In this document: positions 9,001-12,000 of the stretch, one piece after another | How the letters are laid out: every line of letters begins with the position of its first letter | Position numbering within the stretch: position 1 is the stretch's first letter | UHGV virus genome: UHGV-0354001 | Source of the DNA: a virus | Length of the DNA: 39,506 nt | Reading direction: 5' to 3' (one strand) | Program-made: the position numbers

Positions 9001-12000
9001 TGATCAGCAGTTCACTGGGCATTTCACGCTGGAAAAATATGCAGCAGGTTAACGAGTGTGGGCGGCGAGCTGTTGCGCATTATCCGGGTATGGTGTACTG
9101 GGATTATAACTGGCGCAAGCAGGGCGGCTCGTCCCGTATGATTGAAATCAGCAAGCGCGAAAAATTCTATCAGCAGGAATATTGTGGCTGTGTGTATTCT
9201 CTGCGCGATACCAATCTACACCGCAAATCTCAGGGACGCCCTCTTATCAAAATTGGCCAACTCCACTACGGAAAAGAAGAGAAGGAGTGATTTTATGGAT
9301 CACCTTTCTGATTGATTTCATATTGGCGAGGTGACGTGAGTTAAGTAGAATTGCTGCGGGTGCCTGAGGCTGTCTGCCTCAGGCATGAACACCAAAAGGC
9401 AGATAGAGAAAGCCCCAGTTAACATTACGCGTCCTGTAAGACGCTCAACATTAATCTGAGGCATATGGATGCGGATGAAAGAATTAAATAAATTCAGAGT
9501 GATAGACCTCTTTTGTGGGGCAGGTGGATTATCTTATGGTTTTCTTCATGGAGAGATGTCTGACTACTTTGAAAGTATCCTTGCTATTGATAATAATGCT
9601 GCAGCTATAAATACCTACAATGCCAATTTTGGTTTGCATGGAGTTCAGGCAAATATTGAGGAGTGGGCATCCAGCAATACTGTTCCTGAGGCTGATGTGG
9701 TCATAGGTGGCCCCCCGTGTCAGGGATTCAGTTTATTAAATAAGAATCGTTATGGTGATCACCGAAGAGCATTGTGGGAGCCTTATATGGATGTCATTGA
9801 GCGTTCAAGGGCTTGTATGTTCGTCATGGAAAATGTCCCCGGATTGCTGATAAGCGATGAGTTTGCGGACATTACGTTTAGAGCGAAATCCATGGGCTTT
9901 ATTCTGCTTAATCCAATGGTGTTGAATACTGCTGACTATGGAGTACCTCAGACAAGAAAACGAACGATAGCAATCGGTATCAAACGAGAACTCTTCGATG
10001 TGCATAGTATTCCGGCGTTCCCGCCAGCACCAACGCATCGTTCCCCTGATAAGGATGTCGCTTTGCCTGAATGGGTCTGTACGCGTGATGCAATTGGTGA
10101 CTTACCTGCTCCTGTTGGAACTGATATTCGTAATGAACTTCCTCCGCTGAACTTACATTTTGGGCGTAATCCCACACCTGTTTCTCTGGAGCGATATAAA
10201 GCGGTTCCACCAGGAGGTAACCGTTTCGATTTACAGAAAAAAAGACCTGATATAACCCCGGCGTGCTGGCTAAAAAAGAAATCTGGAGGGACCGATTTGT
10301 TTGGACGTCTGTGGTGGGACAGACCTTCAGTAACGATTCGTACTGAGTTTTTCAAACCGGAGAAAGGGCGATATTTACATCCGGAAGAGGATCGGCCAAT
10401 AACTCATCGTGAGGCAGCGAGATTAATGTCTTTTCCTGATAATTTCATTTTTACCGGTTCAAAAACTGAGATTGCAAAGCAGATCGGGAATGCTGTTCCA
10501 CCGCTATTTGCGGCAAAAATCGCACAATATGTGTATGGAGTTTTGCAGGGACGGTATAAGAATAACATCAGTAAGAATAGTCAAGCAGCCTGAAGGAAAT
10601 CCAGAAATGAATGGAGATTTGGTTGACAGCATAGTTGGTTTTGCTGAAGCCAGAAAGGAGTTTCATGCCCAATTGTTACTGAATACGCTCACAATTAATA
10701 CTGCCGGAGTTGTTAGTAACGCAGATAGCAGTAACAAAAACAGTAAAGCTATAGCAAGAGAAATTGCTCGCTTCTTGCAGGCTGAAACGATTGGTGAACG
10801 TGTTGCAGGGCAAACATCTGGTAATCAGTTTGAGAGTATCTGCGCAGAGTTTATAGAAAAAACCTTTTTTAAACTCAGCCACTTACGCCCTGGAAAATGG
10901 AATGTACATCAGGTTTCTGGTAGAAACAGATTAGAGATAGCTAAATATGAACAATATGCCCATCTTATAGCATTGGATAGTGCTGCAAAAAGTAATCCTC
11001 AGCTAGCTGCTGCACTGGGGAGTGATTATACGATTTCACCAGATATTATTGTTGAAAGAGAACCTGAATGTGATCAAGTTATCAACAGTCCTGAATTACT
11101 GGTGGATGATTCTGTTACCCGCATGTCAGCTCTCAGGAGTTCGAATGGTGGGAAACCAATATTACACGCAAGTATTTCCTGCAAATGGACAATAAGAAGC
11201 GACCGGGCCCAGAATGCTCGTTCTGAGGCATTAAATCTTATTCGCAACCGTAAGGGAAATCTCCCTCATGTAATGGTTGTTACTGCTGAGCCTACTCCAA
11301 GTCGTCTGGCGTCTATTGCTCTTGGTACTGGTGATATAGATTGCGTGTATCATTTTGCGCTTTATGAACTTATATCAGCAGTTGAAATACTGGGGCTCAG
11401 CGATGCAGCTGACATGCTTTCCGTGATGGTTAATGGTAAAAGATTAAAGGATATTTCTGATCTTCCCTTGGATCTTGCAGTCTGACATCTCTACGTAAAT
11501 AGAGTCTGTCATATTTTAACTGTGATGGCACGTCATTGACTTCAGTACATTTTTACTAACCCGCTTCGCGGGTTTTGTTTTTTCCTGGCATTCTGGTTTA
11601 CAATCCACACGCCAGCCTGAACAACTGGCACCTGCTGCGCCAGCAGAGACAACCGATGGCGCACGATACCAAATTACACAATTCTGATGATTCTGCCGTC
11701 TTTGCCAGCAGGCACGGGCGGCGTTCCCGCACTTTCAAATCTGACTGGTTCCAGCATCCCCCATGCACTGAAGAACAGGCCGAATGGCTAATTCATAACT
11801 ATCGCAGACGCGGATACGAGATTAAGAAAGCCCTCAGCCTCGATTATCGTCACTGGATAATCTATGTCAGGCTCCCTTATTCCGAACGCCCACCGCGCCC
11901 ATCCCGCACATACCAGCAACGGATCTGGAGGTAACGTGCGGATATTACTTCGACCTGTTCTGGTACCGGAACTCGGGCTGGTGATCGTTAAGCCGGGCAG

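What the first reader, a model, noticed from the sequence alone, without database searches (positions are those of the whole stretch)
9300..11585. Type II restriction-modification system (C5-methyltransferase plus NgoMIV/Cfr10I-like endonuclease) inside the prophage
The methyltransferase has unambiguous C5-MTase motifs (FCGAGG, GGPPCQGFS, ENVPG). The next ORF has PD...SxK...E spacing reminiscent of the NgoMIV/Cfr10I/Bse634I family, which cut RCCGGY/GCCGGC-type sites. The pair ends in a clean terminator and looks more AT-rich than its flanks, consistent with horizontally acquired defence or addiction cargo. The specificity is unknown.
Basis: partly seen in the sequence, partly recalled or inferred. 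Interest (0 to 1): 0.6.

Follow-up and report, generated by a model that had tools for sequence, protein, structure and literature searches.

The report
NgoMIV-type restriction-modification cassette in prophage

Summary
The observation and its interpretation both hold. A C5 cytosine methyltransferase gene (9469/9475-10593) is followed 13 nt later by a full-length NgoMIV-family endonuclease gene. That gene starts at 10607, not at the overlapping TTG 10472, and ends at 11485. An intrinsic terminator follows at 11558-11584. The nuclease is 66% identical to crystallised NgoMIV and keeps the catalytic and CCGG-recognition residues, so the predicted site is G/CCGGC. An essentially identical pair (59 of 60 at 99% identity or more) is already auto-annotated under these names in 60 of 5426 complete E. 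coli genomes. I therefore class it as a new member of a known kind with low surprise.

- **hok locus replaced.** The 2.1-kb cassette replaces the mok/hok reading frames and the sok promoter of a hokW/hokD-type addiction locus. It keeps the hok promoter, the 5' leader and the terminator.
- **Methylase of a different lineage.** The methylase is only about 25% identical to the methylases that accompany NgoMIV-type nucleases in other species. Its own lineage normally pairs with an HNH nuclease, and a tree places one partner swap at the base of the enterobacterial clade.

Enzyme activity, methylated base and promoter use are inferred, not shown.

The parts
9323..9351 (+). Promoter-like site TTGGCG-17 nt-TAGAAT, the presumed hok promoter, retained upstream of the cassette
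   Evidence: Consensus scan. The same site is conserved at the same place in the intact hok locus of phage Evi. It ends 6 nt before the first position of the Rfam hok-leader model. Its use as a promoter is inferred.
9358..9462 (+). Remnant of the hok mRNA 5' leader, up to and including the mok Shine-Dalgarno GAGG (9458-9461)
   Evidence: Rfam RF01794 'sok' scores 61 bits (gathering score 59), with only model positions 1-88 well aligned. The stretch is 91% identical to the Evi hok locus over 9293-9462. The leader is present in 4060 of 5426 E. coli genomes, where the gene that follows is annotated hokD.
9408..9462 (-). Promoterless 3' part (about 55 of 71 nt) of the antisense sok gene
   Evidence: sokW is 71 nt complementary to the hokW 5' UTR (PMC8621323). 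In Evi the inferred sok promoter TTGCCT-17-TAACCT lies 23-51 nt beyond the junction, so it is deleted here. No minus-strand promoter-like site is found at 9465-9520.
9463..11555 (+). Imported M-R cassette (2093 bp, 42.7% GC), replacing the mok/hok reading frames
   Evidence: Homology to the hok locus stops at 9462 and resumes at 11556/11557. This is the lowest-GC stretch of its length in the window. In another prophage context (L119) the shared DNA starts at TATGG, window 9464.
9469..10593 (+). C5 cytosine DNA methyltransferase gene (374 aa from ATG 9469; the conserved start is ATG 9475, 372 aa)
   Evidence: PF00145 at E 4e-54 and TIGR00675 at E 5e-45. Motifs I, IV, VI, VIII, IX and X are present. 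PGAP uses the start at 9475, and relatives L118 and L119 lack the ATG at 9469.
10607..11485 (+). NgoMIV-family type II restriction endonuclease gene (292 aa)
   Evidence: PF09015 at E 1e-126 over the full model. It is 65.8% identical to NgoMIV 1fiu. PADLOC REase_II model PDLC03527 matches at E 8e-126. E76, P145-D146, K193, E207, RSDR 197-200 and Q69 are present.
11486..11555 (+). Cassette 3' untranslated stretch
   Evidence: It has no counterpart in the intact hok locus and is conserved in cassette copies L118 and L119.
11558..11584 (+). Intrinsic terminator (7-bp stem, 5 G-C pairs, T-rich tail), the terminator of the hok locus
   Evidence: Terminator scan. The hairpin stem arms and T-rich tail are the same at the end of the intact hok locus in Evi; only the loop differs, by one extra G.

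Best explanation
This is an intact Type II restriction-modification operon carried as a moron in the early (nin) region of a lambdoid prophage. The methylase puts 5-methylcytosine on a site that includes GCCGGC. The nuclease is an NgoMIV-type PD-(D/E)XK enzyme that probably acts as a two-site tetramer and cuts unmethylated G/CCGGC. The lysogen would therefore restrict incoming phage and plasmid DNA, and loss of the prophage would be penalised by post-segregational cutting. The family assignment and the integrity of all catalytic and recognition motifs are shown. The exact site, the methylated base and activity in vivo are inferred. The cassette occupies a hokW/hokD-type locus: the mok/hok reading frames and the sok promoter are gone, while the hok promoter, the leader with the mok ribosome-binding site, and the hok terminator remain. 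The most likely arrangement is therefore one M-R transcript that starts at the hok promoter near 9358 and ends at 11584 (inferred). The pair is a hybrid. The nuclease comes from the NgoMIV lineage, and the methylase comes from a lineage that otherwise partners an HNH nuclease.
For: Family: PF00145 at E 4e-54 and PF09015 at E 1e-126 over the full model; PDB NgoMIV at E 1e-118 with 65.8% identity over 281 aa; PADLOC REase_II and MTase_II. Active site and recognition: PD-x46-K-x13-E, RSDR, and the equivalents of NgoMIV Q63 and E70 are all conserved. The motif definitions come from PMC3413111 and PMC2532715. Operon: same strand, 13-nt gap, AAGGA before ATG 10607, and a single terminator. Maintenance: an essentially identical pair (59 of 60 at >=99%, one at 95-99%) is present in 60 of 5426 complete E. 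coli genomes, in different prophages and in a degraded prophage, and 23 of 26 near-identical IMG/VR copies are intact. Two copies carry a nuclease-only frameshift, which is the usual decay route of an active system. hok context. All 60 E. coli carriers have both junctions. Hybrid origin: 80 NgoMIV-family loci from other species have an upstream C5 methylase only about 25% identical to this one. Close relatives of this methylase pair with an HNH protein in Yersinia, Edwardsiella, K. pasteurii, Marinospirillum and 24 viral contigs, and with an NgoMIV-type nuclease only in one nested clade. Identity in the variable (target-recognition) region equals identity in the core.
Against: Nothing here measures enzyme activity, methylation or transcription. 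No open-access paper in the library describes this E. coli system. The methylase's specificity is inferred only from its viable pairing with the nuclease. One IMG/VR copy (L135) has a frameshifted methylase with an intact nuclease. If that is not a homopolymer sequencing error, the nuclease is tolerated without its methylase. Cassette copies in Klebsiella and in L119 lack the hok promoter, so the cassette does not depend on it. A stronger consensus promoter match lies inside the methylase gene at 9569-9597. GCCGGC depletion in the window is not specific evidence.
Confidence: 0.75

Rival explanations
1. The system is a silent relic. The genes look intact, but the nuclease is inactive or not expressed, so the locus behaves as an orphan m5C methylase whose main use is to protect phage DNA or alter host gene expression.
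For: No activity data exist. Nuclease-null alleles with an intact methylase occur naturally (L116 and L117). One copy has a broken methylase with an intact nuclease (L135), which is only viable if the nuclease is harmless or the assembly is wrong.
Against: All catalytic and recognition residues are conserved at 66% identity to an active enzyme. The nuclease ORF is intact in 23 of 26 viral-contig copies, and all 60 complete-genome carriers hold the pair over its full length (59 at 99% identity or more); RefSeq annotates both genes in the carriers examined, with no pseudogene flag in the two inspected. The L135 frameshift lies in an A7 run, a typical sequencing-error site.
Confidence: 0.12
2. 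The system is active but recognises a different CCGG-containing site, for example RCCGGY like Cfr10I and Bse634I, or a longer site.
For: Related enzymes that share the RxDR core differ in the outer base pairs (PMC3413111). Identity to NgoMIV is 66%, not near-identity. The methylase is from a foreign lineage whose site is unknown.
Against: The best and only PDB sequence hit is NgoMIV itself, not Cfr10I, Bse634I or SgrAI. The full PF09015 model is matched. RSDR is present rather than the RPDR of Cfr10I. The equivalent of NgoMIV Q63, which contacts the outer C, is conserved, and so are the equivalents of D34, S36 and R227 (their role is from my recollection of Deibert et al. 2000).
Confidence: 0.1
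3. The locus is still a working hok/sok toxin-antitoxin module, with the R-M genes inserted as passengers.
For: The Rfam sok model passes its gathering score at 9358-9538, and the hok promoter-like site and terminator are retained.
Against: No hok or mok reading frame remains. Homology to intact loci stops right after the mok ribosome-binding site and resumes at the terminator. Only model positions 1-88 of 157 align convincingly. The inferred sok promoter is deleted.
Confidence: 0.01

Closest known systems
NgoMIV (NgoAIV/NgoBV-type) restriction-modification system of Neisseria gonorrhoeae; nuclease structures PDB 1FIU and 4ABT
   Same: The nuclease has the same length (292 vs 286 aa) and is 66% identical end to end. 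It has the same PD-x46-53-K-x13-E active site and the same RSDR CCGG-recognition motif, and the residue that contacts the outer C is conserved. The gene order is methylase then nuclease, as in 80 NgoMIV-family loci of other species. Methylation there is m5C at GCCGGC (PMC6789123).
   Different: The methylase is not the M.NgoMIV type. It is only about 25% identical to the methylases that accompany NgoMIV-family nucleases elsewhere. The host is a lambdoid prophage of E. coli rather than the chromosome. No biochemical data exist.
Cfr10I / Bse634I / SgrAI (CCGG-family type IIF nucleases)
   Same: They share the fold family, the active-site motif and the RxDR core recognition (PMC3413111 and PMC2532715).
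   Different: They recognise degenerate or longer sites (RCCGGY, CRCCGGYG). None of them is detected by sequence search with this protein. Cfr10I has RPDR, whereas this protein has RSDR.
hokW/sokW of Stx2 prophage Sp5, and hokD-type loci of lambdoid prophages (type I toxin-antitoxin)
   Same: The genomic position in the phage is the same. The promoter-like site, 5' leader and terminator are the same, at about 91-95% DNA identity. Like an R-M system, hok/sok can act as an addiction module (PMC8621323).
   Different: The toxin and mok reading frames and the sok promoter are replaced by the M-R genes, so no type I toxin-antitoxin function can remain.
Methylase + HNH nuclease pairs of Yersinia, Edwardsiella, Klebsiella pasteurii and Marinospirillum, and of P2-like and other prophages (uncharacterised)
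   Same: The methylase is 68-77% identical, equally so in the variable region, so it probably has the same methylation site. Many copies are also prophage-borne.
   Different: The partner is a 326-330 aa protein with a C-terminal McrA-like HNH domain whose gene overlaps the methylase gene, not a PD-(D/E)XK NgoMIV-type enzyme.

Membership tests
NgoMIV family type II restriction endonuclease (Pfam PF09015) | Full-length match to the family model above the curated threshold | tested here: met
   422 bits against a gathering score of 23.2, model positions 1-275 of 275. PADLOC REase_II model PDLC03527 matches at E 8e-126.
NgoMIV family type II restriction endonuclease (Pfam PF09015) | Catalytic motif PD-x46-53-K-x13-E plus an upstream acidic residue (Bse634I Glu80, Asp146, Lys198, Glu212; PMC3413111) | tested here: met
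   E76, P145-D146, K193 (in SCK) and E207 are present, with spacings of 46 and 13. All align with identical residues of NgoMIV.
NgoMIV family type II restriction endonuclease (Pfam PF09015) | RxDR motif that reads the CCGG core | tested here: met
   RSDR at residues 197-200, identical to NgoMIV and SgrAI.
NgoMIV family type II restriction endonuclease (Pfam PF09015) | Residues that specify the outer G:C pair (GCCGGC rather than RCCGGY) | tested here: inconclusive
   The equivalent of NgoMIV Gln63, which H-bonds to the outer C (PMC3413111), is conserved as Q69. The equivalents of D34, S36 and R227 are also conserved, but their role is from my memory of Deibert et al. 2000 and was not checked in a held paper.
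NgoMIV family type II restriction endonuclease (Pfam PF09015) | Cleavage of G/CCGGC; tetramer that needs two sites (type IIF) | not testable with these tools
   This requires biochemistry.
C5 cytosine DNA methyltransferase (Pfam PF00145) | Conserved motifs I (FxGxG), IV (PCQ, with the catalytic Cys), VI (ENV), VIII (QxRxR), IX and X (GNAV) | tested here: met
   FCGAGG at 15, GGPPCQGFS at 80, ENV at 121, QTRKR at 161, REAARLMSFPD at 314 and GNAV at 340. PF00145 at E 4e-54 and TIGR00675 at 154.5 bits against a cutoff of 100.65.
M.NgoMIV-lineage methyltransferase (the usual partner of NgoMIV-type nucleases) | Close sequence relationship to the methylases encoded next to NgoMIV-family nucleases in other taxa | tested here: not met
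   The upstream methylases in 80 loci whose nucleases are 59-78% identical are only 23-34% identical to this methylase.
Cognate Type II R-M pair | Adjacent, co-directional methylase and nuclease genes conserved as a pair across hosts | tested here: met
   The same pairing is found in E. coli, the Klebsiella michiganensis prophage, a Cronobacter dublinensis island and 6 more divergent viral contigs. All form one clade in the methylase tree.
Cognate Type II R-M pair | The methylase modifies the nuclease's recognition site | not testable with these tools
   This is inferred only from the viability of carriers with an intact nuclease.
[quoted passage not shown] | Hok toxin ORF, overlapping mok ORF, antisense sok gene with its own promoter, and a folded hok mRNA leader | tested here: not met
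   Only the promoter-like site, the first 88 of 157 leader-model positions, and the terminator remain. The hok and mok ORFs and the inferred sok promoter are replaced.

The most novel reading that the evidence does not exclude
One addiction module has been swapped for another in place. The R-M operon would have captured the constitutive hok promoter, the hok 5' leader and the mok ribosome-binding site, so that its expression in the lysogen is set by hok regulatory RNA elements. It could still be modulated by Sok RNAs made by sibling hokW/hokD prophages in the same cell. Separately, because one methylase lineage exchanged an HNH partner for an NgoMIV-type partner, the uncharacterised HNH protein would be a non-homologous nuclease that acts on the same methylation site.
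Probability: 0.2. Interest if true: 0.5.

Novelty: new member of a known kind. Interest (0 to 1): 0.3.

Why it matters
As it stands this is a routine defence and addiction moron. It adds one more predicted GCCGGC system to E. coli, and it is carried by prophages of clinically relevant lineages, including O157:H7 strains. It may matter in practice as a barrier to transformation, phage typing or phage therapy in the roughly 1% of strains that carry it. It would also be a source of m5C that PacBio methylomes miss. The replaced hok locus and the swapped nuclease partner are tidy natural examples of modular exchange between selfish killing modules. They give two cheap testable predictions: hok-promoter-driven R-M expression, and an HNH enzyme with NgoMIV-like specificity. 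From general knowledge of Type IV enzymes, any m5C in GCCGGC creates either an RmC (McrBC) or a CmCGG (McrA) target. The prophage should therefore be excluded from hosts that carry the matching enzyme, which could explain its patchy distribution. I could not test this.

Tried and rejected
1. **GCCGGC avoidance as evidence of activity.** The window has 3 sites against 15.9 +/- 3.5 expected. However, GGCGCC (3 vs 15.8) and GCGCGC (4 vs 18) are equally depleted. Phage Evi, which lacks the system, and an E. coli chromosomal stretch are also depleted. This is a generic feature of the host, not evidence.
2. **Transposition signatures at the cassette ends.** Only short repeats were found. One is a 10-nt direct repeat TCTGAGGCAT at 9455 and 11222, which is about what chance gives in 2.4 kb. 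I rejected these.
3. **A controller (C) protein or other small regulator gene.** None lies between 9290 and 9469 or after 11485.
4. **The 48-aa minus-strand ORF 9318-9464.** It lies in the hok leader and is not Hok-like, so I treat it as spurious.
5. **The weak RyhB hit at 11524-11581** (24 bits against a gathering score of 55). It is just the terminator hairpin.
6. **The Rfam sok match extending to 9538.** Only the first 88 model positions align. The rest is forced through a 43-nt insertion onto the methylase motif I codons.
7. **Literature.** I found no paper in the held library on this E. coli system or on an R-M cassette replacing hok.
8. **Naming the HNH partner.** I found only a McrA-like or IscB-like HNH domain, with no named restriction enzyme.
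9. **Structure prediction.** I did not run it, because a 66%-identical crystal structure exists.
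Full report
**Observation**

ORF 9469-10593 (+) matches the C5 DNA methylase family (PF00145 at E 4e-54; TIGR00675 at 154.5 bits against a cutoff of 100.65). It carries motifs I, IV, VI, VIII, IX and X (FCGAGG, GGPPCQGFS, ENV, QTRKR, REAARLMSFPD, GNAV).

The next ORF matches the whole NgoMIV_restric model (PF09015 positions 1-275 of 275, E 1e-126). It also matches the crystallised NgoMIV protein (PDB 1fiu/4abt, E 1e-118) at 65.8% identity over 281 residues.

The mechanical ORF list starts this gene at TTG 10472, inside the methylase gene. 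The alignment to NgoMIV begins at query residue 12 counted from ATG 10607. That ATG is preceded by AAGGA, and RefSeq uses the same start. The nuclease gene is therefore 10607-11485, 13 nt after the methylase stop.

A terminator-like hairpin with a T-rich tail lies at 11558-11584. The cassette has 42.7% GC against 51% in the flanks, and it is the lowest-GC stretch of its length in the window. The surrounding genes are those of a lambdoid prophage: exonuclease, O/P-like replication proteins, DUF1627, DUF977, DUF968, RusA-position ORF, Q, terminase, portal and tail J.

**The nuclease**

The family motif PD-x46-53-K-x13-E described for the CCGG family (PMC3413111) is present as P145-D146, K193 and E207. 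The upstream acidic residue is E76.

The RxDR element that reads the CCGG core is RSDR, as in NgoMIV and SgrAI. Cfr10I has RPDR (PMC2532715). The equivalent of NgoMIV Gln63, which contacts the outer cytosine, is conserved as Q69.

The equivalents of D34, S36 and R227 are also identical. I recall these as contacts to the outer G:C pair from Deibert et al. 2000, and I could not check that in a held paper.

No other CCGG-family enzyme is detected by sequence search. I therefore predict G/CCGGC with about 0.8 confidence. Tetramer formation and cleavage cannot be tested here.

**The methylase and its partner history**

I fetched 80 loci from other species that encode NgoMIV-family nucleases 59-78% identical to this one. 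Nearly all have a C5 methylase directly upstream, but it is only 23-34% identical to the window's methylase. The window's methylase has its own relatives at 68-80% identity in Enterobacterales and marine gammaproteobacteria.

Their neighbours fall into two groups:
- **Paired with an NgoMIV-type nuclease:** Klebsiella michiganensis (a lambdoid prophage) and Cronobacter dublinensis.
- **Paired with a 326-330 aa protein carrying a McrA-like HNH domain:** Yersinia kristensenii (a P2-like prophage), Edwardsiella tarda, Klebsiella pasteurii and Marinospirillum. The HNH gene overlaps the end of the methylase gene.

Among 69 IMG/VR viral contigs with a relative of the methylase, 32 pair it with an NgoMIV-type nuclease and 24 pair it with the HNH protein. 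In a neighbour-joining tree of the methylases, all NgoMIV-paired ones form one clade nested inside the HNH-paired ones (no bootstrap was run).

Identity between the two groups is the same in the variable region (72-82%) as in the catalytic cores. This argues that the methylation site did not change.

The simplest reading is a single replacement of an HNH nuclease by an NgoMIV-type nuclease next to an unchanged methylase. It implies that the HNH enzyme acts on the same site, which is inferred.

**The cassette sits in a hok/sok locus**

The flanks 9293-9462 and 11556-11700 are 90-95% identical to a locus found in many lambdoid phages and in 4060 of 5426 complete E. coli genomes. In those loci the intervening gene is annotated hokD, MokW or host killer protein.

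Rfam's hok-leader model (RF01794 'sok') matches at 9358-9538 at 61 bits (gathering score 59). Only model positions 1-88, window 9358-9462, align convincingly. The intact locus in phage Evi scores 113.5 bits.

Alignment with Evi shows that homology stops immediately after the mok ribosome-binding site (CTGAGGC, ending at 9462). It resumes at the terminator hairpin. The retained and lost parts are:

| hok/sok element | State in the window |
|---|---|
| hok promoter-like site (9323-9351) | retained; ends 6 nt before model position 1 |
| hok 5' leader | retained |
| terminator | retained |
| mok and hok reading frames | gone |

SokW is 71 nt long and complementary to the hokW leader (PMC8621323). 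In Evi its inferred promoter, TTGCCT-17-TAACCT on the minus strand, lies 23-51 nt beyond the junction. It is therefore deleted here. No minus-strand promoter-like site replaces it.

All 60 E. coli genomes that carry the cassette have both junctions, and so do 25 of 27 near-identical IMG/VR copies. One 97%-identical copy (L119) sits in another lambdoid prophage between DUF977 and DUF1367 genes without the hok leader. It still carries the hok-type terminator, and its shared DNA starts at TATGG, window 9464. That copy probably descends from a hok-embedded one. The Klebsiella copy shares only the coding DNA (72% identity over 9487-11478) and has no hok elements.

**Mechanism**

The following points are inferred:
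- In the lysogen the operon is probably transcribed from the hok promoter and stops at the hok terminator.
- The methylase is translated from ATG 9475. This start is conserved in all relatives, and an in-frame ATG at 9469 lies 7 nt after the mok GAGG in this allele only.
- The nuclease is translated from its own AAGGA site.
- During lytic growth, anti-terminated early transcription would read through the operon.
- The methylase protects host and prophage DNA. The nuclease cuts incoming unmodified DNA and penalises loss of the prophage.

A cassette retained intact in the degraded prophage of strain B-1109 fits selection or addiction, but it is a single case. Two viral-contig copies in different flanks share a 1-nt deletion of G10856 that truncates the nuclease at 108 aa and leaves the methylase intact. 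That is the usual decay route of an active system. One copy has the opposite defect, in an A7 run, and may be a sequencing error.

Regulation by Sok RNAs from sibling prophages is conceivable, because 55 nt of target remain with 2 mismatches. However, the 16 nt complementary to the Sok 5' end are gone, so I consider it unlikely.

**Control for site avoidance**

GCCGGC occurs 3 times in the window against 15.9 expected. Two unrelated GC-rich palindromes are equally depleted, and both a phage without the system and host chromosome are depleted too. This says nothing about the system.

**Known or new**

RefSeq already labels the pair with these family names in 60 genomes, including many O157:H7 isolates. 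It is a member of a thoroughly studied enzyme family.

I found no paper in the held library on this particular system, or on an R-M cassette replacing hok. Only one sequenced phage record in the phage collection encodes an NgoMIV-family nuclease, at 56% identity.

I class it as a new member of a known kind. The finding is correct but ordinary. The hok replacement and the partner swap are modest evolutionary footnotes rather than a new mechanism.

Noticed in passing
window 8604-9290 (+): An epoxyqueuosine reductase QueH gene (PF02677, E 1e-65) sits as a separate moron directly upstream of the hok leader. It is also present upstream of the cassette in strain 9000 and B-1109 but absent in the L119 context. 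A tRNA-modification enzyme in a lambdoid prophage is unusual, and I did not examine it further.
   Followed up: partly
window 13348-16966: After the Q antiterminator gene come three tRNAs (14254-14500), STnc100 (14579-14787) and the anti-stx2 sRNA AsxR (14791-14843, minus strand). No stx genes precede the 656-aa phrog_143 ORF. This is a Stx-phage-like late region without the toxin.
   Followed up: no
window 3177-3228 (-): A DicF antisense sRNA (Rfam 61 bits, gathering score 48) lies in the early-left region, as in Qin-type prophages.
   Followed up: no
whole window: The GC-rich palindromes GCCGGC (3 vs about 16), GGCGCC (3 vs about 16) and GCGCGC (4 vs about 18) are all about five-fold depleted, while CCGG is twice as frequent as expected. 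Depletion also occurs in phage Evi and in host chromosome.
   Followed up: yes
L086 6100-7092; L088 6088-7068; L090 5088-6071; L091 5079-6059: An uncharacterised 326-330 aa protein with a C-terminal McrA-like HNH domain is the usual partner of this methylase lineage. Its gene overlaps the methylase gene end, and it is probably a restriction enzyme for the same site.
   Followed up: partly
L116 and L117 (window equivalent 10856); L135 (window equivalent 10237-10243): These are natural frameshift alleles. Deletion of G10856 truncates the nuclease at 108 aa in two copies with different flanks. Loss of one A in an A7 run truncates the methylase at 259 aa in one copy whose nuclease is intact, which may be a sequencing error.
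   Followed up: partly
L118 about 5095-5135 (window equivalent 11566-11567): One cassette copy carries an insertion of about 36 nt inside the loop of the terminator hairpin.
   Followed up: no
L093 (E. coli B-1109, NZ_CP117971.1 2177343-2198071): Here the cassette survives intact in a degraded prophage. The region from DUF968 to the tail tip has been deleted and the integrase is frameshifted.
   Followed up: partly
window 9569-9597 (+): The best sigma-70 consensus match of the region (TTGAAA-17-AATAAT, 10 of 12) lies inside the methylase gene, about 100 nt after its start. If it is active it would give a transcript that encodes the nuclease without a full methylase. Chance matches are expected in this AT-rich DNA.
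   Followed up: no
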